Positions 40-64,000 of a stretch of 64,000 nt of DNA are shown here, in pieces; within the stretch, counting starts at the first letter, position 1; each line of letters starts with the position of its first letter. This DNA comes from Callorhinchus milii (Eukaryota): the NCBI RefSeq assembly GCF_018977255.1, contig NW_024704742.1:50160001-50224000 (forward strand), in the 5' to 3' direction. The notes beneath the pieces are model-generated. The model worked only from the letters and a program-made list of their open reading frames with translations, searched no databases and was not told where the DNA came from. The translations under genes were made by a program, and so were the position numbers.

Positions 40-1089
40 ATGCCTAGGTTCCCAGTGCGCAACCTAGGTGTCCAGTTCGTCCTCCAACTGTCCTTCTCTG
101 ACTATCACTGCCTTCTTCCACCTCCGCCACATTGTCTGCCTCCGACCGTACCTTACCCCAAATGCTGCCGAAACCCTCCTGCATGCGTTTGTCGCCTCCC
201 GCCTGAATTACTCAAACGCACTCCTCGCCAGTCTCCCCAGCTCCACCATTCACAAGATCAGCTCATTCAGAACACTGCTGCCTGCATACTGACCAGGACC
301 AAACCCCATACCCACATTTCACCAGTTCTGACCAGGCTCCACTGGCTCCACATCACCGAACGGATCGAAGTAAAGATCCTCACACTCGTATTCAAATCCC
401 TTCACTCCCTGGCACCTCCCTCCCTCTCCGACCTCCTCACTCCCCAATCCACCATCCAGCGCCTCCACTCAACTGGCAACCAACTCCTGCTCATCCCTCG
501 CACGCTCTGCCCCACCATTGGTTGTGCTTTCAGCCACTACACCCCAAAACTCTGAACACTCTCCCTCAATCCCTCCACCTTGTCCCCTCTCTCACCTCTT
601 TCAAGTCCTGCCTGAAAACTTTTATGTTCGACCGTGCTTATGGCCACCTCTCCACTCCCTCTGGCTCAGAGACAGGCTCTGCCACTGTTAAGCACTTTGT
701 AATGCTACCCTGCATGGAGGGTGCTATATAAGGAGGAGTTCTGTAGCTCAGTGGTTAAAACACTCGCTTTGCAAGTGAGAGACCTGAGTTCAATTCCTGG
801 TAGGGCGAAACCTTGGGCAAGTTTCCTTACTCCACACGCCTAATAATAATCCCTCCAACAAACAAAACAATAATAAATTGGTCATTTTCAATCCACGACT
901 GTTTGTGGGACATTGCTGTGCGCAATTGGCTGCCGCGTTCGGCCACAAATATACAGTCAATTCACTTTACAGTATATTCTGTGAAGCGCTTTGGGACATC
1001 TAGAAGACGTGAAAAGCGCTATATCAAATGCAAGGAATATTATTATTATTATTATTATTGTTATTTATAAGAGCAAGTAGTTGTTGTTG
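40..1089 (+). mobile_element. L2 LINE 3' fragment (decayed ORF2 end plus 3' UTR), with its tail split by a SINE
   Basis: Translates to ...PVRNLGV, HAFVASRLNYSN and LHWLHITERIEVKILTL. The tail GCTATATAAG...AGCAAGTAGTTGTTGTTG resumes after the SINE. Confidence 0.9.
733..1065 (+). mobile_element. tRNA(Ala)-derived SINE with Deu-like core and L2-type tail
   Basis: A box TAGCTCAGTGG, B box GAGTTCAATTCC, anticodon-loop-like CTTTGCAAG, core GTGGGACATTGCTGTGCGCAATTGGCTGCCGCG, (ATT)n tail and a TATAAG TSD. Confidence 0.9.
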
Positions 1090-2783: not shown

Positions 2784-3542
2784 ATATTGAGATATTACTG
2801 AAACGGGGCCTTTGATGACACATATTCAAGTATTATTTCTCCCTTAATAAAATAGAATTAAAGTGGATATATATCTTGTACCATTTCTGTTGCTTGGTTA
2901 TAAAATTCTGTTGCTGATTTTTAATGGAGATTGGATAGCTGTCATCCAAATAAAAATATCATAATTTAAATTGAGGTAATAGAACAGAAATTGACAGTCA
3001 AGTTAGAAGCTTCTTTATTGGATTTTTTGTAAACTATCTTAGTCATATACCCAAACTGACAATAATATAATATGGTTCAGTTGATGGTATTCTAAAATTC
3101 TTGACTATCTGTCAGGTTCATGATAACGTTCAGCTCTTTTCCTCAGCAAGTGTTTCTGAGAGATACATATCACAGTATTTGTATATCTAAAATGAGGTTT
3201 CAAGACTTCAGTTCATTTGATTTTAATGTATTTCTCCAAATCAGAAATGTGAAATATTTGCAAGTGAATCTTCACTGAAAGAACTATTTATGTTTTGCTG
3301 CTAAATCAATCATGAAGACTGATGTGCACTCCATTGGACTTTTATGGAAGCGGATTAAGATGATGCTTCTGGTGACAGTGCCTTGCTTCTCAATCCAGTG
3401 ATATAATGTATGGCTTTATGAATCAGAAGGTTGTAGTTTCAAGATCCACATGGAGGCACTGACCTCAAAGATCAGACTGATACACCAAAGCAGTTTCATG
3501 TTTAATGTTCAAAATCAAAGCCTCTGCTAGTCTCAAGGCCTC

Positions 3543-5150
3543 AACAACAACAAAATTACATTTGCATAGTGTATTTCACGTTGGGAGATCCGAAGGTGCT
3601 GGACAATTAGTGTTTTGGGGATCGGGGAGAGCATGGGGAGGAAGGATGGTGAGTGAAGGCACGGTCGAAGGGGAGGTTCTGGAGTTGGGTCTTGAAGGAG
3701 GTAAATGAAGAGGCGAGGCAGAGGCACTGTGGGATGGAGTTCCAGAGGATGGGGGCAGAGTGGCTGAAGGACCACACTCCAATGGTGGGGCGGGCGAGGT
3801 GGGGGACATGAAGCAGGCCAGAGCCCGCTGTGTGGAGCGAGTAGGCAGATTGGTAGGGTGTTAGGAGCTTGCAGAGGAAGGAGGGAGCAAGGCCATGGAG
3901 AGCTTTGTAGGTGAGAACCAAGATCTTGAACTGTATCCTCTGTGTGATGGGAAGCCAGTGGAGTCAGGTGAGAATGGGGGTGAAACGGTCATGGAGCCTG
4001 CTGCAGGACAGGACACGGGCTGCAGAGTGCTGGATGATTTTCAGCCTATGGAGGGAGGAGCTCGGGAGGCCGACAAGCAAGGAGTTTGCATATTCGAGCC
4101 TGGATTTTATGAATGCGTGTATGAGGATTTCTGTGGCCTGCGGTATGAGACAGTGGCAGAGCCGGGCCATGTTGGAGCGGAGGAAAGGCGGAGCTGGTCA
4201 TGGCACAGATGTGGGGTAGTAAGGATAGTTGAGGGTCAAACAAGATGCCAAGATTCCAGACTGGCTTAATAAGGTGGAGTTTGCATCCTTGGATGGTGAT
4301 GCTGTCAGAGCCTGAGGTGAGGAGGCGCTGACAGGAACCAATCAGGAGGGCCTCAGTCTTGTTTACATTCAACTGAAGAAAGTTAGCTCTCATCCAACAC
4401 TTGATGTCTGACAAACATTCTGTCAGGACAGCAGTGGTCCTGGAATCAAGGGTGGAGGAAGAGAGGTACAGTTGGGTGTCATCCGCATACATGTGGAAGT
4501 TGACCCCATGTCTGCGGATGATGTCACCAAGAGGGAGCATACAGATACTGAAGAGGAGGGGACCAAGGACAGAGCCGTGATGAACGCCACACGAGACGGT
4601 GCGGGGGCTAGAGGAGAAACCATTTGTGGAGATGAAGTGGAGACAGTGTGAGAGGTAGGATCTGAACCAGTCAAGGACAGAATCATGAAGGTTGAAGTGA
4701 GAGGAGAGGTGGTGGATGAGGATAGAGTGGTCGCCGGTGTCGATGGCAGCAGAAAGGTAAGGAGGATGAGGAGGCAGATGGAGCCCTAGTCACAGATGGG
4801 CAAAATGTCATTTGTCACTTTGACCAAAGTTGTTTCTGTGCTGTGGGCGGCCCGGAAACCTGATTGGAGGGGTTTGTGAAGGGAGTGGTGGGAGAGGAAG
4901 GAGCAAAGCTGGGAAGCAATAACTCATTCCAGGACCTTGGAAAGGAAATGGAGGTTGGAGATGGGATGGTAGTTTGAGAAAAGGGATGAGTCCATGGAGG
5001 GTTTTTTAAGGATAGAGTGAGGACGGCTGTTTTTAAAGGGGTGGGAACGGTGCCAGTGGACAGGGAAAAGTTTATGGTGTCTGTGAGTAGAGAGGCAAGG
5101 AGGTGGAGCTGAAAGTTAAGGAGAGGGGTCGGATGTGGAACAGGTGGTCG
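3543..5150 (-). mobile_element. L2 LINE, about 1.6 kb and 5'-truncated, with a disrupted RT domain
   Basis: Translates to YHPISNLHFLSKVLE, GSVLGPLLF, FHMYADDTQLYL and NFLQLNVNKTE, followed by the C-terminal region and (GTT)n tail. Frameshifts are present. Confidence 0.95.
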
Positions 5151-5342
5151 GTTTCATGTGGTTATCTCAAACTTGATCATGAAATAAAATGTTCGCTGCT
5201 CTTCTAAAAATCCAGTGCAGAAAATACGTATTAAACCCCCAAAACATTACCACACTATTTAAGGGCTAAAAACATAAAAATCTCTCACCTACTGTATGAA
5301 GAATAAAAAAAAGGTGGCTGATCAACTTTGAAAAACTGGATT

Positions 5343-5942
5343 AACAACAACAACAACTTGGATTTATATAGCGTCCTCCACACTGGACGGCGTCTCAGAG
5401 CGCTTCACAGTAACGGATCCCGGGGCCAAGCCAGGGGGAGGGGGAGGAAGGTGACCAAAGGCGCGGTCGAAAAGAAAAGTCTTCAGCAGAGACCTGAAAA
5501 TAGGAAGAGAGGGGGGCGAGGCGAAGGGAGTGAGGAACAGAGTTCCAGAGTCTCTGGGTGTAGTGGCTGAAGGCACGGCCGCCGAGGGTGGAGAGGAGGA
5601 CTCAGGGGACAAGGAGGAGGCCAGACCCGGAGGAATGAAGGCAACGGGCACTATTTTGAGGAGAGGAGGTCGGAGAGGTAGGGGGGTGCGGAGGAGTGGA
5701 GGGATTTGAAGACAAGGGTGAGGATCCTGAAATCGATCCTCTCTGGGACAGGCAGCCAGTGCAGTCTGGCAAGGGCTGGGGTGATCGGGGAGCGGAGTTT
5801 GGTGCGGGTGAGAATGCGGGCGGCAGAGTTTTGAATAATCTAGATTTTATGGATGGTAGTGGAGGGGAGGCCGGCGAGGAGGGCGTTAGAATAGTGAAGC
5901 CGAGAGGTGACAAAGGCATGGACCAGGGTTTCAGCGGCTTTC
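5343..5942 (-). mobile_element. Young L2 3' fragment (same subfamily as 15854-16794)
   Basis: High identity by eye to the 16.2-16.8 kb copy, including the 3' UTR GGCCCCGGGATCCGTTACTGTGAAGCGCTCTGAGACGCC. CpGs are retained. Confidence 0.93.
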
Positions 5943-14921: not shown

Positions 14922-14989
14922 CATGTCAGTGTCTGAAACAGGGCCAAAGCTTGTGACATAGATGTCTGTCTCCACTTCGGTTACTCTCT
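14922..14989 (-). CDS. gabra2: gabra2 coding exon (68 nt): (E)[22 protein letters not shown]
   Basis: Minus strand reads ttattatatcag|AGAGAGTAACCGAAGTG...ACTGACATG|gtaagt. The 68-nt size and phase 1-to-0 match the conserved alpha-subunit exon. Confidence 0.96.
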
Positions 14990-15812: not shown

Positions 15813-17190
15813 AGGTCAGCCTGGCTAGGTTGGTAGCATTCTCACCTCTGAGTTGAGCAGACGACACCCAACTCTATATTTCCACCTCACATTGCGACCA
15901 CCAGTCCCTGATGTTCTGTCAGCCTGCCTGTCTGATATCAGGAGCTGGATGAGTGTGAATTTCCTTCAGCTGAATGTTGGCAAGACAGAAGCCATACTCT
16001 TTGGCTCTCGTCAACATCTAAAATCTCATGATTCTCACCTCCTCCACTTACCCGACCGCCCCTTAAAACTCTCCGAACCCATACGCAACCTAGGCTTCAG
16101 GTTCGACCCCCAATTATGCTTCCTCCCCCACATCCGGTCCCTTACCAGCACCGCGTTCTTCAACCTCCGACACATGCCCGTCTCCGCCAATACCTCACTC
16201 CAAAAGCCGCTGAAACTCTGGTCCATGCCTTTGTCACCTCTCGGGTGCACTATTCAAATGCCCTCCTCGCCGGTCTCCCCTTCACTACCATTCACAAAAT
16301 CCAGGTCATCCAAAACTCTGCCGCCCGCATTCTTACCCGCACCAAACTCTGCTCCCCGATCACCCCAGTCCTTTGTAGACTGCACTGGCTGCCTATCCCA
16401 GAGAGGATCGACTTCAAGATCCTCACCCTTGTTTTCAAATCCCTCCACTCCTTTGCACCGCCCTACCTCTCTGACCTTCTCTCTCCTCACAACATTGCTT
16501 GTTGCCTTCGCTCGGGTTTGACCTACTCCTTGTCCTTCGAATCCTCCGCTCCACCCTCGGCGGCCGTGCCTTCAGCCACTACGCCCTGAGACTCTGGAAT
16601 GTCCTTCCTCACTCCTTTCGCCTCGCCCCCTCTCTTCCTATTTTCAGGTCTCGGCTGAAGACCTTTCTTTTCGACCGTGCCTTTGGTCACCTTCCTCCCC
16701 CTCCCCCTGGCTTGGCCCCGGGATCCGTTACTGTGAAGCGCTCTGAGACGCCGTGCAGCGTGGAGGGCGCTATATAAATCCAAGTTGCTGTTGTTGAGTC
16801 AGAAGGTTGTGGGTTCAAGCCCCACATCAGGACTTGGAACTCACATAGTTTAATGTAACACTACAATTCAGTGCTGGGGGAGCGTTCTCAGTGGTGCCAT
16901 CCTTTGGATGAGATGCCAAGCTGAGCTCTCATCTGCGTGATCAGGGGATGTTCAAGGTTCCATGGCGCTATTCAAGAAGCCATTTGCTCCTAGTGCCTGG
17001 CCAACAATCCCCCATATAAAATTGGTATTTCATTTCATGGCTGTTTGTGGGATACTGCTGTACACAAATTGGTTGCTACATTCACCTACAAAATACACAT
17101 TCACTACACTCTTCAGTCATTCTTGGGATGCGCCACAAAAACGTTTTCCAGGCATGAAAGGTGCTATAACGAATAATAACATTCCTTGCA
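15813..17190 (+). mobile_element. Deu-core SINE split by an L2 insertion (pieces 15813-15853 and 16795-17190)
   Basis: The head GGTCAGCCTGGCTAGGTTGGTAGCATTCTCACCTCTGAGT continues as TGAGTCAGAAGGTTGTGGGTTCAAGCCCC after the L2. Confidence 0.85.
15854..16794 (+). mobile_element. Young L2, 5'-truncated at the (Y)ADDTQL motif
   Basis: Starts GCAGACGACACCCAACTC and encodes CLSDIRSWMSVNFLQLNVGKTE and LHWLPIPERIDFKIL. It has a complete tail and a TGAGT TSD. Confidence 0.95.
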
Positions 17191-27117: not shown

Positions 27118-27233
27118 CTCCTAATCCTGGTCTCAGGCGGTTGTCATAGCCATCCAGGAGTCTGTCGAGAATTCTGGTGAAGATGGTGATATTGTTCTTT
27201 GCTTCATCTTCCAATGAATCAGATTGTCCCAAT
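27118..27233 (-). CDS. gabra2: gabra2 coding exon (116 nt): [38 protein letters not shown]
   Basis: Minus strand reads aaattcag|ATTGGGACAA...GGATTAGGAG|gtcagt. It encodes the N-terminal helix and the GYDNRLRP motif, with an N-I-T sequon. Phase 2-to-1 fits both neighbouring exons. Confidence 0.96.
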
Positions 27234-30715: not shown

Positions 30716-32098
30716 CAACAACAACAAGATTGTATTTGTATAGTGCCTTTCACGTCGGGAGGATATCCCAAGGCGCTGGACAGTGTAAACATTTCAGACC
30801 AGAACTTGGGTCAGGGTGGGAGAAGGGAAGGGAGGGGAAGGGGTGCAGCCAAAGGTATGGTCGAAGAGGAGGGTGTTGAGGCGGCACTTGAAGGAGGCTA
30901 AGGAGGGGGCGAGACGGAGTGAATGGGGGATGGAATTCCAGAGGTTGGGGGCAGAGTGGCTGAAGGCTCTCCCGCCAATGGTGGAGCGGGTGGGTCGGGG
31001 GATATGGAACAGGTCGGAGCCGGCTGAGTGGAGGGAACGGGCACAATGGTAGGGAGTTAGGAGGTCACAGAGGTAGGGTGGGGCGAGGCCATGAAGGGCT
31101 TTGTAGGTGAGGACCAGGATCTTGAACTGGATCCTCTGAAGGACAGAGAGCCAATGGAGTCAGGCGAGAATAGGGGAGATGGGGTCACGGAGATTGGTGC
31201 AGGAGAGGACACGGGCTGCAGCGTTCTGGATTATCTGCAGCCTGTGGAGGGAGGAGTTGGGAAGGCCGACAAGCAGGGCATTTTCATAGTCGAGCCTGGA
31301 GGTGATGAAGGCATGAACAAGAGCTTCAGCGGCCTGAGGGGTGAAGTAGTGGCTGAGTCGGGTGAAGTTACAGAGGTGAGGGAAGGCAGAGCGGGTCATG
31401 GCTTGGATGTGGGGAAGAAAAGACAGTTGAGGGTCGAACAAGACACCCAGGTTCCTGACTGGCTGGTGAGTTGTAGTGTGCAACCATGGAGGTTGATGTT
31501 GCCAGAGCCTGAGGTGCTGACATGAGCCAGTCAGGAGGGATGCCAGATGTGACAGTGCGGGGGCTGGAGGAGAAACCATGAGAGGCAACAAAGTGGAGAC
31601 AGTGAGAGAGATAGGAATCGAACCAGGCAAGAGCAGGTCCGCGAAGATTAACAACAACAACTTGGATTTAGTAAAGAGGAGAGGCGGTGTATGAGGATGG
31701 AGTGGTCGACAGTGTCGAAGGCAGCAGAGACGTCGAGGAAGACAAGGAGGCAGAGGGAGCCCTGATCACCAATGTTCCGAATGTCATCAGTGACTTTGAC
31801 CAGGGCTGTTTCCATGCTGTAGGTAGTGTGGATTGGAGAGGTTCAAAGAGGGAATGGCGAGAAAAAAGGAGCAGAGCTGGGACGCGACAACTCATTCCAG
31901 GACCTTGGAGAGGAATGGGAGGTTAGAGATGGGGCGGTAGCTGGAGAGGAGGGATGGGTCCGGGGAAGTTTTTTTAGGATGGGGCTGATGACGGCTGTTT
32001 TCAGGGGGGTTGGAACTGACAAGGAGAGGTTGATGACATCGGACAGGAGAGGGGCCAGAAAGTGCAGCTGGGCGATGAGGAGAGAGATGGGGATGGAT
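30716..32098 (-). mobile_element. L2 LINE, about 1.4 kb, with an internal deletion of the YADD region
   Basis: SYRPISNLPFLSKVLE and HAFITSRLDYEN are present. Sequence corresponding to about 4350-4590 of the 3.5-5.1 kb copy is absent near 31540. Confidence 0.92.
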
Positions 32099-33320: not shown

Positions 33321-33690
33321 AATAATAATAATCCTTGCATTTGATACAATACCTTATCACGTCTTAGGGTCGTCTCAAAGTACTTCACAGAATATACTTA
33401 GAGTTACTACAGTAAAGTGACTGTATATTTTGTGGACACAATGCAGCAGCCAATTGCGCACAGCAGTGTTCCACAAACAGTCATGGATTGAAGTGACCAA
33501 TTTTACTATTTTTTTTAAAGGAATTATTCCCCCCGGAAAAGCGATCCGCCAATTGACTAACAAACAGGTTCCTATTTACCACGAGGTGTGTCGAGTAAGG
33601 AAAGTTGCCCAACATTTCGCTCTGCCGAGAATCAAACCCAGGTCTCTTGCTTGAGAGGCAAGTGCTCTAACCACTGAGCTACAAGACTCC
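33321..33690 (-). mobile_element. tRNA-derived SINE, full length
   Basis: Complete head (A and B boxes), body and tail. Confidence 0.92.
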
Positions 33691-35019: not shown

Positions 35020-35345
35020 CTCTTCACAGAATATACTGTAAAGAGAATTGACTGTATATTTTATGGTGAAATACAGTAGCCAATTGCGCACAGCAGTGTC
35101 CCACAAACTTGAATGGATTGAGCGACCAAATTATTATTATTATTATTCTTTATTTATTTAGATGAGATTATTACCATCAGAAAAGAGATCCACCGATCGA
35201 CTAACAACCAGGTTCCTACTTACTGATAGGTAAACAGATGCATGTGGAGAAGAAAGCTTGCCTAACGTTTCGCCCTGCTCGGGAACTGAACCCGGGTCCT
35301 TTTGCTTGCGAGGCGAGTGCTCTAACCACTAAGCTACAGGACTCC
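35020..35345 (-). mobile_element. tRNA-derived SINE
   Basis: Body and head (...gcgagtgctctaaccactaagctacaggactcc) match the family. Confidence 0.88.
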
Positions 35346-43469: not shown

Positions 43470-45420
43470 GATCTCTGCACTATATTATTAGATCATGGCA
43501 AATATTGTATATCTTTATAATTCTATTCTACTCCTTTTCTCCATATCTGTTAATACCCTTACATCCCAATTACTTACCCATCTCCCTCTTAAACACCTCA
43601 ATTAATTCTGCATCTATGGTCTCAGGCTGGTCATCCTAGGTTCCAGATAACTAACCAATCTTAACATTTAAGATAATATCCCCTTGTTCTGGATTCCCCA
43701 CTAGAGGGAAGACTTGTTCTCTATCTAACTGATCAATTCCCATTATTATGTTAAACGTCTCAAATCACCTCTTAAGCTCCTCAACTCAACTGGAATTATA
43801 ACCCAAATTTATCTAATCTCTAATCACAGCTAAATGCATTCATTCGGGCATCAATTCAGCGAATCTTGGTGAATAGTGGATGGACTTCCTGCAAACCTAC
43901 TATGTCCTCTCTATGTGTGACACTCAAAATGTAGCCCAATATTCCAAATATGGTTAGTCTGCCACTCTACAGTTACTTGCCTGCTTTTATATTATAGATT
44001 TGTCAGGATCAATCCAGGCATCTATTAACATTTCTGATTGTTTTCTGCACTAAAAACTAACATCTGTATGGGGAACCCTAAATCTAGAACTCTCTCCCCC
44101 ACTGTTTGCCCATTTCAAAAATATAGCTATTTGCCATTCTTAAATCCAAAGTGGACTGCCTCACACTTTGCTCATTGAAGTCAATCTGTTGGAAAAGATC
44201 AGTCCCAGCAGGCAGCACATGCATGCTTGGCACAGGTAGTCTTGCTGACATTATTTTGTCAAGGAAGTGACATGAGAAAAACTTTATTCCAATAGCATGC
44301 TTGAGCACAATATGTGGCAACTAACGTCAGAGGCGTCCGTTACTTTTTCTCACTTTACTTTTACACAACTACAGAGATATTGGACACAGAAGATCCAGCG
44401 TTGTCCTGTACACCCTTTTCCAATATTCTGTTTCCTTCACAATTCACTACAGCTCTTAGCTTGATATCATTTACAAACTTGGATACACTTATGAATCTCT
44501 TATGCATAATCTTATCAAATACTCTCTCAACATCCATATATATTACATACAATGATCCGCCTCTGACTACCACTTCAATGGGTTCTGTCAAAGAACTCCA
44601 TTTGGTTTGTCAGAATTTCTAAACACACCAATTCTATCTAGTCAGTGTACACTTATCCAAGTGCTTAGTTATTCTGGTATAAACACAGAAGTTGCTGGGA
44701 ACACCAGAAGGTCAGATAGCATCCATGGAGTGTGGAAAATTAGTTAACGTTTCAGGTTAATGACCTGTTGTCAGATGCCCTTTCGGACAGTTCTGCCGAA
44801 TGTCATTGACTTGAAACGTTAATTCATTTTCGTCTCTCCATGGATGCTGCCTAACAGGCTACGTGTTTTCAACGTTTGTGTTTATACCAGATTTCCAGCA
44901 TCTGCAGTACTTTGCCTTTTGCTTAGTTATTCTCTCTGGTGATGGATTATAGTGTTTTTTCTACATCTGATGTTAAATTTTAATAACTCTGGTACTTGCT
45001 TCTTTAATATTCACGTGATGTTTGCTACTTTTAAATGATCTCGTATTTTCCCAGAATCTATGAAGGTTTGTAAGACAATAACTGCTGTATCATCAGTTTT
45101 TTCATTTATTTAACACTCTTGGGTGGAAATCATCTGGGCTGATCATTTGTCTCGCTGCAGTCCCATTAAGGTATCCATTTTAATTATTTTATTTATGCTA
45201 ATTCCCGTAAATTGTTTTTCTCCTTCAATAATCGTTAATCTTTCCTGTGCTTTGGTACAGTACCTTCCTTTTCCAATGTGAAGACCAGAGCAAAATATTC
45301 ATTTACCATGTCTGCCATATCTTTATCCTCTGTTATTGTCACACACAAATCTGTTTTTAATGGACCCAGCCCCTCCTTCACTATCTATTTCTTGATATAC
45401 TTAAAATAACACTTCATCCG
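43470..45420 (-). mobile_element. Decayed CR1 LINE, about 2 kb, with internal deletions and insertions
   Basis: VIYMDVERVFDKIMHKR and SKFVNDIKL correspond to CR1 YxDFxKAFDKVPH and SKFADDTKL. A KS.GPD.FHPRVL-like segment lies near 45115-45145. Confidence 0.75.
44676..44919. mobile_element. Palindromic Penelope-like (pLTR-derived) non-autonomous element with a 14-bp TSD
   Basis: Inverted arms span 44674-44890 (CTGGTATAAACAC..GTGTTTATACCAG). TGCTTAGTTATTCT is duplicated at 44662-44675 and 44920-44933. Each arm has a hammerhead-like core. Confidence 0.8.
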
Positions 45421-46957: not shown

Positions 46958-47762
46958 TGTGCACTTGTGTTCCGATATGCTACCCTGCGTGAAGGGTGCT
47001 ATATAAATGCAAATTGTTGTTGTCCGGAATATCGCCAGATTACGGCACTACCTCACCCCTCACGCCGCTGAAACCCTGGTTCACGCCTTTGTCACCTCAA
47101 GGCTGGACTATGGGAACTCTCTCCTCGCCGGCCTTCCCGCCACCTCCCTCCACAAGCTGCAGGTCATTCAGAACTCTGCAGCTCGTGTACTGTCCCGCAC
47201 CAGGCTTCGCGACCACATCACTCCCACCCTCGCTCGCCTCCACTGGCTCCCCATCCCCCAGAGGATTGATTTCAAGATCCTCATCCTCACCTACAAGGCC
47301 ATTCACGGCCTTGCTCCCTCCTACCTCTCCAACCTACTATCCCCCTACCTACCTGCCCGTACCCTCCGTTCCTCTGGCTCCGGTCTGCTCCACGTCCCCC
47401 GCCCCAACCGCCCTACCATCGGTGGTCGGGCCTTCAGCCTCTCAGCCCCCAGGCTCTGGAACTCCATCCCCCAGTGCCTTCGCCTTGCTTCCTCCCTTTC
47501 CTCCTTCAAGGCCGGTCTCAAAACCTTTCTCTTTGACCGTGCCTTCAGCTCCCCTCTCGACTCTCTTCCTCCTCCTCGCTCCCTCCCTTCCCTCCCCTCA
47601 CCCTGACCATTTCCCCCCTCCTCTCTCCCTCCCTTCCCTCCCCTCACCCTGACCATTTCCCCCCTGCTCGGGTCATGACCCAACTGTGCAGCGCCTTGGG
47701 ACGTCCTCCTGACGTGAAAGGCGCTCTATAAATGGAATCTTGTTGTTGTTGTTGTTGTTGTG
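46958..47762 (+). mobile_element. Composite L2 insertion: 65-nt L2 tail plus a young L2 3' fragment (47023-47762), inside one 9-bp TSD
   Basis: Uninterrupted frame RNIARLRHYLT...LKTFLFDRAF, a tandem duplication in the 3' UTR and a (GTT)n tail. TCATGGTAA occurs at 46949-46957 and 47763-47771. Confidence 0.92.
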
Positions 47763-58514: not shown

Positions 58515-58591
58515 CCTGCCAGCCAGCACACCACCAGCACCGCACTCACAAGGGCTGAAGATGGCAATTTGCTCATCAGTTGCCTGTTCAT
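58515..58591 (-). CDS. gabra2: gabra2 first coding exon, signal peptide MNRQLMSKLPSSALVSAVLVVCWLA(G); whole exon 58515-58599 including 8 nt of 5' UTR
   Basis: Strong acceptor ttcaacttttcttcag|GACCAGACATG and donor GG|gtgagt. It encodes a hydrophobic stretch. The phase-2 end (GG+A = Gly) joins the 116-nt exon in frame. It lies about 0.95 kb from an upstream donor, near the CpG-rich region. Confidence 0.75.
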
Positions 58592-59547
58592 GTCTGGTCC
58601 TGAAGAAAAGTTGAAACACAGCGTTGAGATCGGGCGTCGGGGAGGGGGGGGAAAAAAAAAGCAGCAGCAGCAGCTTTGGAACTGCGAGACACCTCTACAA
58701 GTGTGGAATTGAACTGGATATGTTTGACTGCGACTCGCTGGTACCCAACAGGCGGTGGAAATGTGCACAGTCGGTTTTGCCACATTCAGTGCAATCTCCA
58801 AAGTAGCGCTGTGGTTTGCACAGTGCTGTCTGCATTACACCAGAGCAGGGAGGACACATGCATGTGAAATAACGTGCAGACTATATACCCCACCCCCCAC
58901 ACAAACACACACACACACACACGTATGTGTGTGCACATGTGAGATGTGTTCATGTGGTTTGTGACAGTGTGGCTCTCAGTGCTGCTACAGCAGTGCTGTG
59001 CAGCTCTCGGTGGCTATCACCAAAGTGACAAGACCAGGGATGGCCAGTGATCAAACACAGACTTCAGGACGATCCAGTGTTCCCAACTCGGTTTTTTTTT
59101 TTCTCTCCCCCCTCCCCCTCCCGATCTCAATGCTGACAGCTCCGATTCGGGAATCGGAAACAAAAACCCGGGCAAAAAAAAAAAAAAAATAATAATACTA
59201 CTAATAAAAAAAAACTACAGTAACAACCCCAACGACGGCTTGAACACATCTTCCCTGAAACCAGGACGATCTGTTGAGCGGAGACGAGCTGCGGTGGGCA
59301 GGGGATTCATCCACCAGGGGGGGGGGGGGGGATATAGTTTAATATCCTCTCCCACAGTCCTGGTTGAGGGCAGGAAAGGAGGCATCGTTTATAGCGGGCG
59401 AGTGCTTGTCTTTTTTTAGAGGGAGAAAATCACACAGGTAACGTTTGGGAAGGAGTGGGTGGGTGAGTGGGTGAGGAGGGATGGGGATGGGGATGGGGAA
59501 GGGGGGGTGGGGGGGGGGGGAGAGAGACAAGTGGACCTCTTGCTTAC

Positions 59548-59640
59548 CTGGGTGTTTGGAGGTGATGTGATGATCCGATCCGATGTGATCTCAACGGCTG
59601 GAGTCCGGCAAAGCCTGAGATGTGAAAGTTGTAGCACAGC
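59548..59640 (-). other. gabra2: Probable non-coding exon 1 (5' UTR) of gabra2; 5' boundary unknown and may extend through the repeats to about 60150
   Basis: Consensus donor CAG|gtaagc at 59547, in unique sequence between the promoter repeats and the ATG exon. Confidence 0.55.
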
Positions 59641-59649
59641 CCCCAGTGC

Positions 59650-60130
59650 TGCAGCCACAGCCACACACACACAGAGCCACACACACACACACAGCCACAC
59701 ACACACACACACACACAGCCACAGCCACACACAGCCACACACACACAGCCACACACACACACACACACACACCACACACACACACACACCACACACACAC
59801 ACACACACACAGACACACACAGCCACACACAGCCACACACACACAGCCACACACACACACAGAGCCACACACACACAGCCACACACACACACACACAGAG
59901 CCACACACACAGCCACACACACACAGCCACACACACACACAGCCACACACAGACAGCCACAGCAGAGAGAGCACAGCAGAGAGAGCAGAGAGAGAGCACA
60001 GCAGAGAGAGCAGAGAGAGAGCAGAGAGAGAGCACAGCAGAGAGAGAGCACAGCAGAGAGAGCAGAGAGAGAGCAGAGCAGAGAGAGAGCACAGCAGAGA
60101 GAGCAGAGAGAGAGCACAGCAGAGAGAGCA
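59650..60130. repeat. Compound microsatellite: (CA)n with CAGC interruptions, then a CAG/AGAG repeat
   Basis: Directly visible in the sequence. Confidence 0.97.
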
Positions 60131-60420
60131 GCGCTTGGCGGGGGTTAGAGCAGGCGGCGTGTGCGCAACACGGGAACGCGCTTTATGCTAACACAACCTC
60201 CGTTAATTTATGCTGATCCACAGTGGCACCCGAGTGATGACCGTACACTACCCATAGTCTGCGTCAAACTGCCGGCAGAGCGGCTCCCGACACGGCACTC
60301 GGCGCACTCCTGGTTCGGTGCAAAGCAGAACGCCGCTGACGGTCAGTCCCGAGCACAAGTGTGGTGGGGGGTTCAGCCCCGGGACCACCGGCTCCCCTCA
60401 AGGTCCTAGCGCTCGCCAGG
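60130..60420 (-). promoter_or_regulatory. CpG-rich putative gabra2 promoter
   Basis: Local CpG enrichment in an otherwise CpG-poor window, with GC-box-like GGCGG motifs. Two minus-strand GCATAAA TATA-like elements lie at about 60182-60188 and 60207-60213, upstream of the putative exon 1. Confidence 0.5.
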
Positions 60421-60429
60421 CTGCAATAC

Positions 60430-61376
60430 ACCACCCACACACACTCACATGCACACCCACCCACACACTCACTCACATGCACACACACCCACACACTCAC
60501 ATGCACACCCACCCACCCACTCACATGCACACCCACCCACCCACACACTCACATGCACACACACCCACACACCCACACACACACTCACATGCACACCCAC
60601 CCACACACCCACTCACATGCACACACACCCACCCACTCACATGCACACCCACCCACACACCCACTCACATGCACACACACCCACACACCCACCCACACAC
60701 TCACACATTCACATGCACACCCACCCACACACTCACCCACCCACCCACTCACATGCACACCCACCCACTCACATGCACACCCACCCACACACCCACCCAC
60801 ACACTCACCCACCACCCACTCACATGCACACCCACCCACTCACATGCACACCCACCCACACACCCACCCACACACTCACCCACCCACCCACTCACATGCA
60901 CACCCACCAACCCACCCACCCACTCACATGCACACCCACCCACACACCCACACACTCACCCACCCACCCACCCACACACTCACCCACTCACATGCACACC
61001 CACCCACCCACACACTCACCCACTCACATGCACACCCACCCACCCACACACCCACCCACACACTCACCCACCCACTCACATGCACACCCACCCACACACC
61101 CACTCACATGCACACCCACCCACACACTCACATGCACACACACCCACCCACCCACTCACATGCACACCCACCCACCCACCCACCCACTCACATGCACACC
61201 CACCCACACACTCACATGCACACACACACACACACCCACTCACATGCACACCCACCCACACACCCACCCAAACACTCACCCACCCACCCACTCACATGCA
61301 CACCCACCCACACACTCACATGCCCACCACCCACCCACACACTCACATGCCCACCCACCCACTCACATGCACACCA
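60430..61376. repeat. CA/CACC-rich minisatellite with a recurring CACTCACATGCACAC motif
   Basis: Directly visible, with dozens of variable-length units. Confidence 0.97.
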
Positions 61377-61974
61377 CGCCAATAAATGGCGCTAGGCTTC
61401 AATCTGCGATCTGCACTCGTGTTAATAATAATTCCATTCCCCTCCTCTGTGTATATTTTTCCTCCCCCCCCATCATTGCTGGCTTTGCTGTCTGCCTGTC
61501 AGTCGCTGTGTGACTGACTGACTGACTGAATGGGTTATCAGGTGCTCAGAGGGTTCAGCTCTGCAAATGCAGAATTATGTTTTGATTTTCTGTGGTGAAA
61601 AACAAACAACATCCCCGAGTGTGTTTGAGTGGAAACGTGTTGATCAGCTTTCCCAGTCAGTCTGATCTGTGCCTTTTCATCACTTGCAAACCGCTGTCAG
61701 TGCGGTCAGGAACAGCCCTGTGTTTGCAGCGCTCCCCCGGACTCTGCCTATTCTCTGCAATGTTCTCCCCATTTACTGAGCAATACTCCAGAGGATCCTG
61801 TGATCGCTTCTCTTGCATCAATAGCAGTTCGGTTCATTTACAATCCCCTATTACTTTCATTAAACATAAAACGATGTTAATGCCCGATTGATGTACGTTT
61901 TAATCTGTAAGATATTTGCAAACACGATGTTGTTTAATTCGCATATTGTTACGCATCTGGTTTGGATTTCACCG

Positions 61975-62325
61975 AGTGTGTGTGTGTGTGTGTGTGCCTG
62001 TGTGTGTGTGTGTGTGTGCCTGTGTGTGTGTGTGTGTGTGTGCCTATGTGAGTGTGTGTGTGTGTGCCTATGTGAGTGTGTATGTGTGTGCCTATGTGTA
62101 TATGTGTGTGCCTGTGTGTGTGTGTGAGTGTGTGTGCCTGTGTGTGTGTGTGTGTGCCTATGTGAGTGTGTATGTGTGTGCCTATGTGTATGTGTGTGTG
62201 CCTGTGTGTGTGCCTGTTTGAGTGTGTGGGTGTGTGAGTGTTGTGGGTCCGTGTGTGTGTGTGCCTGTGTGAGTGTGTGTGGGTGCCCGTATGTGTGTGT
62301 GTGTGTGTGCCTGTGTGTGTGTGTG

Positions 62326-62360
<35 letters not shown>

Positions 62361-62437
62361 CTGTGTGTGTGTGTGCCTGTGTGAGTGTGTGTGCCTGTGT
62401 GTGAGTGTGTGTGCCTGTGTGTGTGGGTGCCTGAGTG

Positions 62438-62469
<32 letters not shown>

Positions 62470-63404
62470 AGTGTGCTCGTGTGTATGTGTGCCTGTGTGT
62501 GTGTGTGTGTGCCTGTGTGTGTGTGTGCCTGTGTGTGTGTGTGTGGGTACCTGTGTGTGCCTGTGTGAGTGTGTGTGTGTGCCTGTGTGTGAGTGTGTGT
62601 GCCTGTGTGTGTGTGTGCCTGTGTGTGTGGGTGGGTGCCCGTGTGTGTGCCTGTGTGAGTGTGTGTGTGTGCCTGTGTGAGTGTGTGTGTGTGCCTGTGT
62701 GTGTGTGTGCCTGTGTGAGTGTGTGTGTGTGCCTGTGTGTGAGTGTGTGTGCCTGTGTGTGTGTGTGCCTGTGTGTGTGGGTGGGTGCCCGTGTGTGTGC
62801 CTGTGTGAGTGTGTGTGTGTGTGAGTGTGTGTGTGTGTGCCTGTGTGAGTGTGTGTGGGTGGGTGCCCGTGTGTGTGCCTGTGTGAGTGTGTGTGTGTGC
62901 CTGTGTGTGAGTGTGTGTGTGTGCCTGTGAGTGTGTGTGTGTGTGCCTGTGTGTGTGGGTGCCCGTGTGTGTGCCTGTGTGAGTGTGTGTGTGTGCCTGT
63001 GTGTGAGTGTGTGTGCCTGTGTGTGTGTGTGCCTGTGTGTGTGTGTGTGCCTGTGTGAGTGTGTGTGGGTGCCCATGTGTGTGCCTGTGTGAGTGTGTGT
63101 GTGTGCCTGTGTGAGTGTGTGTGTGTGTGCCTGTGTGAGTGTGTGTGTGTGCCTGTGTGAGTGTGTGTGTGTGTGTGCCTGTGTGAGTGTGTGTGTGTGC
63201 CTGTGTGAGTGTGTGTGTGTGTGCCTGTGTGAGTGCCTGTGTGTGCCTGTGTGTGAGTGTGTGTGAGTGTGTGTGTGTGTGTGCCTGTGTGAGTGTGTGT
63301 GTGTGCCTGTGTGTGTGTGTGCCTGTGTGAGTGTGTGTGTGTGCCTGTGTGTGAGTGTGTGTGCCTGTGTGTGTGTGTGCCTGTGTGAGTGTGTGTGTGT
63401 GTGC
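61975..63404. repeat. (TG)n-based minisatellite punctuated by GCCT and GAG
   Basis: Directly visible, about 1.4 kb long. Confidence 0.97.
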
Positions 63405-64000
63405 TGTCTAACACTGCAAGGTTTTGATCGTGTTATTTGACTTGAGTGATTTTGATTTCGTCTTTGCCCATATTTTGAGACAGACAGTTGTGATCGAGTG
63501 CATGTGTTTAGATTCTACTTTGTGTAGTGTATAAAGTATGAATAGCAATACATGACTGAACTACCCTCATCAGTTTTTTTTCGAAAATAAAGGGGCAAAC
63601 TTAATACACCAAACCTGGTCAATGGAATAATTCGGCCTCGGCCCCCCACCCCATCCATAATCTGCTTTACAGCACTTAACACAAGCATAAAGCACTTCAA
63701 GTTGCACAGATCAGTCATTTATATTCTGTCTATGTACACTTCCTATGAATAATTAAATACCTGTACTTTCACAAGCTTCCCTTGAGAAGAAAGATAGGGA
63801 AACTGCAGAAGAGAAGAGACAAATATTGTGAATGTGTTGACTGCTATTCCAACACTTTTACGCTCAGCCTCTATTGTTTCATTCCTCGAAGAGTTTTAAT
63901 TGCAATCTGTACGTTTTCCAAGTGCCTCACTCGGCATTTTCAACCCATGTAACTCACTGCACGTTTTATGTACACTAAATATGGTTATTATTATACTGCC

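What the first reader, a model, noticed from the sequence alone, without database searches (positions are those of the whole stretch)
44662..44933. Palindromic mobile element carrying two back-to-back fossil hammerhead ribozymes inside the gabra2 intron
Seen: a 244-bp insert in a CR1, with an exact 14-bp TSD (TGCTTAGTTATTCT) and arms of about 100 bp forming a long hairpin. The + arm (44789-44824) reads AGTT-CTGCCGA-ATGTCATTGACTT-GAAAC-GTTA. The - arm (44742-44776, sense to gabra2 pre-mRNA) reads CTGACAA-CAGGTCATTAACCT-GAAAC-GTTA-ACT. Known: Penelope-like elements carry minimal type I hammerheads (CUGANGA, short stem II, GAAA, palindromic stem III) in their pLTRs, and inverted pLTR arrangements occur. 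Inference: the ancestral core was CTGACGA and each arm has one core mutation, so both are probably inactive now. The family looks like a non-coding, self-cleaving-RNA-based mobile unit. An intact copy in an intron could cleave the host transcript, so selection for inactivation in sense introns is testable.
Basis: partly seen in the sequence, partly recalled or inferred. Interest (0 to 1): 0.7.

Follow-up and report, generated by a model that had tools for sequence, protein, structure and literature searches.

The report
Fold-back Penelope-like retroelement stub in intron
This 244-base hairpin is most likely two mirror-image, decayed end pieces of a very common Penelope-like jumping gene, each with a broken self-cutting RNA motif, which makes it old genomic debris of a described kind that is unlikely to cut the host gene's RNA.

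Summary
A 244-bp insert (44676-44919) lies between exact 14-bp direct repeats and folds as a hairpin (z about -10). It sits in a LINE fossil in an intron of a GABA-A alpha gene (best match alpha-2).

Its anatomy is an inverted arm, a 4-nt loop, a direct arm and a one-sided 28-31-bp tail. This is the published 'inverted pLTR + tail + TSD' pattern of endonuclease-bearing Penelope-like elements (PLEs).

Public contigs show a high-copy family with a shared 3' end, AT-rich flanks, different centres in other copies and one intact CUGAUGA core. The insertion is also in a run labelled as another species. So these are old PLE stubs, not a fixed palindromic unit.

Cleavage of the host RNA is unlikely, and a sense-versus-antisense test is ill-posed for fold-backs.

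The partner RT/GIY-YIG element was not found: no genome is held. One lead: in 6 of 10 other junctions the inverted arm reaches further 5' than the tailed arm, which suggests two independent primings. The scan has noted this family before, here and in other genomes.

The parts
44662..44675 (.). Left copy of the 14-bp target-site duplication; its last 3 bases are also complementary to 44889-44891 (junction microhomology)
44676..44780 (-). Inverted, tail-less arm (5'-truncated pLTR-like end, 3' end pointing outward)
   Evidence: family contigs laid along it
44742..44774 (-). Decayed minimal hammerhead, sense to the GABA-A pre-mRNA: G8->A, helix II mismatch, helix I reduced to 1 bp
44781..44784 (.). 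4-nt loop at the head-to-head junction; 44776-44789 folds as a 5-bp mini-hairpin on the - strand (-1.4 kcal/mol as DNA)
44785..44888 (+). Direct arm (5'-truncated pLTR-like end)
44789..44824 (+). Decayed minimal hammerhead: A6->C, helix II mismatch, no base between core and helix II, helix I 4 bp, palindromic A-C-G-U helix III, GUU site at 44818-44820
44889..44919 (+). One-sided tail (31 bp, or 28 bp without the microhomology); the family's common 3' end lies at about 44920-44925
   Evidence: tables 2 and 7
44920..44933 (.). Right copy of the 14-bp target-site duplication
43650..45400 (-). Host: broken LINE ORF2 fossil (RT-like; limits approximate; the CR1 label is recalled and unconfirmed)
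58515..58591 (-). Inferred signal-peptide coding exon of the GABA-A alpha gene, upstream of the insert
   Evidence: no database hit
27118..27233 (-). GABA-A alpha exon (best match alpha-2), downstream of the insert
14922..14989 (-). Next GABA-A alpha exon

Best explanation
An old, dead insertion made in one event by an endonuclease-bearing Penelope-like retrotransposon. The element's endonuclease cut the two strands of an AT-rich site in a LINE fossil 14 bp apart (inferred from the TSD). Only the terminal ~105-135 nt of the element RNA, which carry the minimal hammerhead, were copied, twice and head to head: once with the tail and once without. The two pieces met at a small template palindrome. 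I favour two independent target-primed cDNAs started at the two start sites that bound the tail (about 0.55) over snap-back self-priming of one cDNA (about 0.3); this step is inferred. The arms were alike at birth and then decayed separately. The hammerheads are passengers of the pLTR: mutated, masked by the hairpin, and not expected to cut the GABA-A pre-mRNA.
For: Shown: TSD, arm-loop-arm-tail anatomy and microhomology. The same layout (adjacent inverted pLTR, 31-bp one-sided tail, 9-bp TSD, palindromes at the junction) is described for Adineta Penelope (PMC3846280, passages and Discussion) and as general for PLEs (PMC8557442, passages). Dual minimal hammerheads on opposite strands ~100-700 bp apart are described in PMC4209133. 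High copy: 1936, 2122, 656 and 449 contigs laid in the 4 of 4 runs; summed depth 5-9 in the flanks against 83,540 (X1) and 124,048 (X4) at 44900-44918, which is not a copy number. A shared 3' end with unrelated AT-rich flanks: loose ends at 44920, 44921 and 44925, agreement 0.38-0.45. Variable centres: the 12 'skip' joints among the 15 shown of 34 skip 73-183 bases. Independent decay: at 6 of 7 left-arm positions where most X1 contigs read another letter, that letter is the right arm's. For the right arm it is 6 of 10; 2 more depend on gap placement, 1 is a change shared by both arms and 1 faces a gap. Age: contigs of X8 (organism B) and X6 (unlabelled) bridge the left junction over 44553-44753 with 17 substitutions and 5 gap letters. 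Masking: forcing the hammerhead fold costs 33.7 (+) and 20.5 (-) kcal/mol, helix II pair probability below 1e-5. Two primings: in 6 of 10 distinct junctions with known intervening letters the inverted arm reaches further 5' than the tailed arm, in 2 the reverse, 2 undecided. The Anolis PLE protein extends both strands in vitro from two start sites that bound the tail (PMC11167929).
Against: No RT/GIY-YIG ORF linked to this terminus was found: no genome is held, and the DNA pattern scans and protein searches were empty or spurious. The hammerhead descriptor is weak against chance alone, and Rfam found none. No alignment of full copies was possible, so covariation is essentially untested. The junction evidence comes from clipped local alignments with 20-49 letters on the short side, only 15 of 34 joints and 12 of 14 between-letter rows were shown, and later deletions in hairpins could also shift centres. 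This copy's own symmetric centre fits snap-back equally well. One X8 contig resembles this copy's left arm in both of its halves (table 5c), which a mobile palindromic master could also give.
Confidence: 0.85

Rival explanations
1. A dedicated non-autonomous palindromic unit: a rod-like RNA with hammerheads of both polarities (viroid- or retrozyme-like) that is copied as a whole by a PLE.
For: A very stable rod fold with hammerhead motifs on both strands. The arms share subfamily letters. One X8 contig carries left-arm-like letters in both halves (table 5c).
Against: Centres differ among copies. Arm differences resolve to one family majority rather than two fixed arm types. There is no head-to-tail repeat, so no pair of same-strand hammerheads could release a unit. 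The hairpin masks both motifs.
Confidence: 0.06
2. A DNA-transposon MITE or foldback element whose hammerhead-like words are coincidental.
For: Long inverted arms, non-coding, high copy. Relaxed hammerhead hits occur by chance (mean 1.2 per shuffled window).
Against: The ends are not inverted repeats, because of the 28-31-bp one-sided tail. A 14-bp TSD is longer than those of cut-and-paste superfamilies (recalled). Arm lengths vary on both sides among copies. Another copy has an intact core heptamer in register with helix II and GAAA (table 5c).
Confidence: 0.03
3. A single PLE-end insertion whose mirror arm arose later, by local fold-back repair or a second insertion into the first.
For: PLE endonucleases can cut their own pLTR (PMC11167929). 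The centre is a small self-complementary site.
Against: One TSD frames both arms, with no second duplication. Both arms carry similar numbers of majority-differing positions (7 and 10). The same inverted layout recurs in other copies.
Confidence: 0.06

Closest known systems
Insertions of EN+ Penelope-like elements with inverted pLTR, one-sided tail and TSD (Arkhipova et al. 2013, PMC3846280: passages and Discussion read; Craig et al. 2021, PMC8557442: passages read)
   Same: Head-to-head inverted end pieces, a 28-31-bp tail on one side only, one TSD around the whole unit, a palindrome at the junction, strong 5' truncation, insertion into another retroelement.
   Different: No ORF and no direct pLTR pair; the whole insert is 244 bp. 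The TSD is 14 bp against 8-10 bp in the rotifer examples. The partner element and clade (Poseidon or Neptune) were not identified.
Minimal hammerheads of metazoan PLEs (Cervera and De la Pena 2014, PMC4209133: parts 1-2 of 4 read; 2 supplementary files searched, 1 not searchable)
   Same: Type I order, CUGANGA-like core, a base between positions 9 and 10.1 (in the - arm), 4-bp helix I, palindromic positions 15.2-16.2, pairs on opposite strands.
   Different: Both cores are mutated here. Helix II is 5 bp and closes with A-U, not the conserved G10.1-C11.1. The two cores lie only 18 bp apart inside one hairpin. No shark or skate term was found in the two supplementary files searched.
PAc, Poseidon element of Anolis carolinensis (Frangieh et al. 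2024, PMC11167929: passages and part 2 of the main text read)
   Same: A tail bounded by two positions about 30 nt apart, AT-rich targets, a hammerhead in the pLTR about 100 nt from the insertion end.
   Different: PAc is an active full-length element. No coding frame could be tied to this terminus.
Animal non-LTR retrozymes (Li, Clavereau and Pollet 2026, bioRxiv 10.64898/2026.07.22.740005: parts 1-3 of 5 read)
   Same: Non-coding, pLTR-related, hammerhead-bearing; found in the one chondrichthyan sampled; reported as depleted from introns in Xenopus.
   Different: Retrozymes are head-to-tail tandems with at least two same-strand hammerheads. This is a head-to-head pair with a TSD and a tail.

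Membership tests
EN+ Penelope-like element insertion | Family master encodes a PLE RT plus GIY-YIG endonuclease and shares this terminus | not testable with these tools
   No genome held; pattern scans empty; protein searches empty or spurious. These collections are not built from animal genomes, so the blanks carry no weight.
EN+ Penelope-like element insertion | Inverted 5'-truncated copy adjacent to the direct copy (head to head) | tested here: met
   recurs in other copies (table 5)
EN+ Penelope-like element insertion | 30-40-bp tail on one end only | tested here: met
   31 bp (28 without the microhomology)
EN+ Penelope-like element insertion | TSD around the whole unit, AT-rich targets, shared 3' end, variable 5' ends | tested here: met
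   14-bp TSD; loose ends and joints (tables 5 and 7)
PLE minimal hammerhead (min-HHR) | Intact CUGANGA / helix II / GAAA-NN'-UH in the family | tested here: inconclusive
   Not intact in this copy. Among 10 distinct junction rows, one shows an intact heptamer, one shows UGAUGA cut at its junction and one shows UGACAA (table 5c). No consensus of full copies was available.
PLE minimal hammerhead (min-HHR) | Helix I and II covariation across copies | not testable with these tools
   No alignable set of copies could be fetched; clips alignments in this region.
PLE minimal hammerhead (min-HHR) | Self-cleavage as a dimer or with the element's protein | not testable with these tools
   Bench test. 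Computation only: the isolated - arm forms a helix II hairpin (register shifted by one pair) and an intermolecular palindromic helix but no helix I; the isolated + arm does not take the hammerhead fold.
Non-LTR retrozyme | Head-to-tail tandem with two or more same-strand hammerheads | tested here: not met
   Arms are inverted; no other family copy in the window
MITE / foldback DNA transposon | Both termini are inverted repeats | tested here: not met
   One-sided tail
MITE / foldback DNA transposon | Uniform unit length and centre | tested here: not met
   Joints skip 73-183 bases; arm reach varies on both sides

The most novel reading that the evidence does not exclude
These short fold-backs record that a Penelope-like element primes reverse transcription twice, once at each nicked target strand, from the two start sites that bound the tail, and joins the two independently truncated cDNAs at a microhomology. 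This differs from the self-priming on an antisense template proposed in PMC3846280. If so, the many short TSD-bounded copies in this lineage are a ready-made data set for the open question of how PLE inverted structures form. The fold-back would also be a built-in off switch for the hammerhead, so any selection against intronic cleavage should act on solo arms but not on fold-backs.
Probability: 0.4. Interest if true: 0.45.

Novelty: new member of a known kind. Interest (0 to 1): 0.17.

Why it matters
As a single locus it matters little: it is an old, inactive stub about 14 kb and 17 kb from the nearest identified exons. Its value is as one of many natural records of PLE insertion. PMC8557442 says the inverted structures come from still undefined features of the transposition cycle, and junction statistics over these copies could separate two-primer from snap-back models. 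For annotation, such hairpins should be read as PLE debris, not as MITEs, microRNA precursors or active ribozymes.

Tried and rejected
Whole genome: not held, so there is no copy census, consensus or intron/intergenic comparison.

DNA pattern scans found 0 matches each: viral contigs 3 scans, metagenome contigs 2, genome contigs 2. These are uninformative for an animal repeat.

Within the window there is no second family copy, by blastn and nhmmer. A 12-base motif scan gave 6 matches against 4.1 expected.

Rfam: no hammerhead at gathering or at E up to 10. The MIR869 hit (29 bits against a gathering score of 330) reflects only the hairpin.

Partner ORF: frame 44815-44949 had no candidates among longer proteins. 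Frame 44823-44921 gave one hit, P0001, a tandem-repeat protein with 10 of 25 identities and no family above cut-off, rejected as spurious.

Host LINE class: no Pfam hit above cut-off for 7 of 7 fragments, PDB RT hits only at E 0.5-0.9, none of 74 candidates passed, no tblastx match elsewhere in the window.

Expression: no RNA holder listed. No RNA run was laid.

Empty-site allele: none among the 15 joints shown of 34; inconclusive.

Faster evolution of the arm than of the flank in the orthologue: Fisher p ranges from 0.001 to 0.6 depending on how many unlisted differences lie in the flank; not claimed.

Literature searches found no paper on this family in sharks and, from the listings alone, none applying twin priming to PLEs. 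The library lacks most subscription papers and Repbase, so this is not proof of absence. One supplementary file of PMC4209133 and the bioRxiv supplements could not be seen and may list this family. PMC6155905 and PMC4350176 were seen as passages only and added only background.

Full report
Observation. The window has an exact 14-bp direct repeat at 44662-44675 and 44920-44933 framing 244 bp. Either strand folds as a long hairpin: -112.9 and -105.2 kcal/mol, z -10.5 and -10.9, with 0 of 200 shuffles as good. The left arm (44676-44780, read on -) and the right arm (44785-44888) align over 108 columns with 79 matches, 22 mismatches and 7 gap columns, around a 4-nt loop. The last 31 bp (44889-44919) have no partner inside the insert, although their first three bases complement the end of the left TSD. 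An X1 contig covers 44678-44904 without a difference, so the centre is real.

Setting. Two - strand exons match GABA-A receptor alpha subunits: 27118-27233 (31 of 31 aligned residues identical to alpha-2) and 14922-14989 (best match alpha-3 on a 22-aa query). A hydrophobic ATG-led stretch at 58591-58515 ends in a GTGAGT donor in phase with the first of them. I infer that it is the signal-peptide exon, which puts the insert in a ~31-kb intron with the left arm sense to the pre-mRNA. The flanks are a broken RT-like frame on the - strand (atlas 0.88, a lead only). 'CR1' is plausible from recalled motifs but was not confirmed. That the host is a cartilaginous fish is my recall-based guess and comes from no call.

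The hammerheads. A descriptor modelled on PMC4209133 finds both arms with one core change and one helix II mismatch each. The + arm has a 4-bp helix I; the - arm has only 1 bp, because of a 2-bp deletion beside the core. Relaxed hits are not rare: 5 in the window against a mean of 1.2 in 40 shuffles, and none passes the strict descriptor. Rfam finds no hammerhead. The case for a true ancestral ribozyme therefore rests on context and on other copies. Among 10 distinct junction rows (table 5c), one shows an intact CUGAUGA heptamer in register with helix II, one shows UGAUGA followed by an extra base and the start of helix II, and one shows UGACAA like the - arm here.

The family. No genome is held and seven collection scans were empty. 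I therefore laid contigs of 4 of the 24 listed runs on 44520-45080 at 80% likeness. In all four runs contigs pile on the insert and not on the flanks: 1936, 2122, 656 and 449 laid, with summed depth 5-9 in the flanks against 83,540 and 124,048 over the tail in X1 and X4. The tool warns this is no copy number. Loose ends cluster at 44920, 44921 and 44925 and continue into unrelated AT-rich sequence (agreement 0.38-0.45), so the family has a common 3' end. Other copies join left-arm to right-arm sequence at many points (12 skip joints of 73-183 bases among 15 shown of 34). Where most X1 contigs differ from one arm, the other arm usually has the majority letter: 6 of 7 left-arm positions and 6 of 10 right-arm positions, with 2 more gap-dependent, 1 shared and 1 facing a gap. 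Both arms thus decayed from one sequence. Contigs of X8 (organism B) and X6 bridge the left junction with 17 substitutions and 5 gap letters in 201 bases, so the insertion predates that species split.

How it most likely arose. Shown: TSD, head-to-head arms with 3' ends outward, one-sided tail, microhomology, variable centres. Inferred: a PLE endonuclease cut 14 bp apart and the RT copied only the element's end, twice. PMC11167929 shows that a PLE protein extends both target strands from two start sites that bound the tail. That would give one tailed and one tail-less cDNA, joined where the template is self-complementary; the centre here is such a site. PMC3846280 instead proposes self-priming on an antisense template. 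Snap-back of the tailed cDNA cannot make the inverted arm the longer one. Yet in 6 of 10 distinct junctions it reaches further 5' even if all intervening letters are given to the other arm; 2 go the other way and 2 are undecided. These rows are clipped local alignments with short sides, the outer ends of those copies were not seen, and later deletions could do the same. I put two primings at about 0.55 and snap-back at about 0.3. This copy alone does not decide.

Effect on the host gene. In a read-through RNA each motif is paired with its antisense arm. Forcing the hammerhead fold costs 33.7 kcal/mol on + and 20.5 on -, and helix II pairs have probability below 1e-5. On the gene's strand the antisense arm is transcribed first. 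Minimal hammerheads did not cleave as monomers and cleaved weakly as dimers (PMC4209133), and the Anolis one needed its protein. Even an intact fold-back should therefore be silent. Depletion of related repeats from introns is already reported in Xenopus.

Comparison and membership. It works like, and has the structural signature of, an EN+ PLE insertion (inverted copy, tail and TSD met). The coding partner could not be tested, so membership is probable, not proven. It fails the tests for a retrozyme (no tandem) and for a MITE (asymmetric ends, no fixed unit). Earlier notes of this scan reach the same class for other copies in this and other genomes. I had the PLE reading before opening them, and I treated them as leads, not support.

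Verdict. A correct observation of an ordinary kind of retroelement debris: new member of a known kind, interest 0.17. The part worth keeping is the junction asymmetry in sister copies as a handle on how PLE inverted insertions form.

Noticed in passing
window 44553-44753 against the X6 and X8 contigs: Only 4-5 of the 17 substitutions in the orthologous contig are listed in the 123-bp flank, which would leave 12-13 in 78 bp of the arm. Faster hairpin decay, gene conversion or unlisted flank differences are all possible (Fisher p 0.001-0.6).
   Followed up: partly
X8 contig, joint 44703->44808 (table 5c): A copy in organism B matches 16 of 16 letters of this copy's left arm (44732-44747), including letters rare in the family, and has the same G8->A core in its other half. 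It may be a close sister copy, a rearranged allele or chance.
   Followed up: no
X4 contig, joint 44754->44881 (table 5c): Its intervening letters, read on the - strand, suggest one G-C to U-A change and one wobble in helix II; a single contig at a junction, so weak.
   Followed up: no
window 44651-44661 against 44909-44919: The target just upstream of the left TSD loosely resembles the element's own 3' end (80% over 25 nt including the TSD). It could reflect site preference or chance.
   Followed up: no
window 737-808 (+), 2710-2781, 33617-33688, 35270-35343 (-): Four tRNA-like heads of a dispersed SINE family (Rfam tRNA 35-54 bits; self-matches).
   Followed up: no
window 95-731, 3542-5941, 15829-16796, 30716-32084, 46993-47751: Several 70-90% identical LINE 3' pieces, one with RVT_1 (4049-4789, E 5e-16); an L2-like class is my recalled guess.
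   Followed up: no
window 59419-63514: Long CA/GT-rich simple-repeat blocks just upstream of the inferred signal-peptide exon.
   Followed up: no
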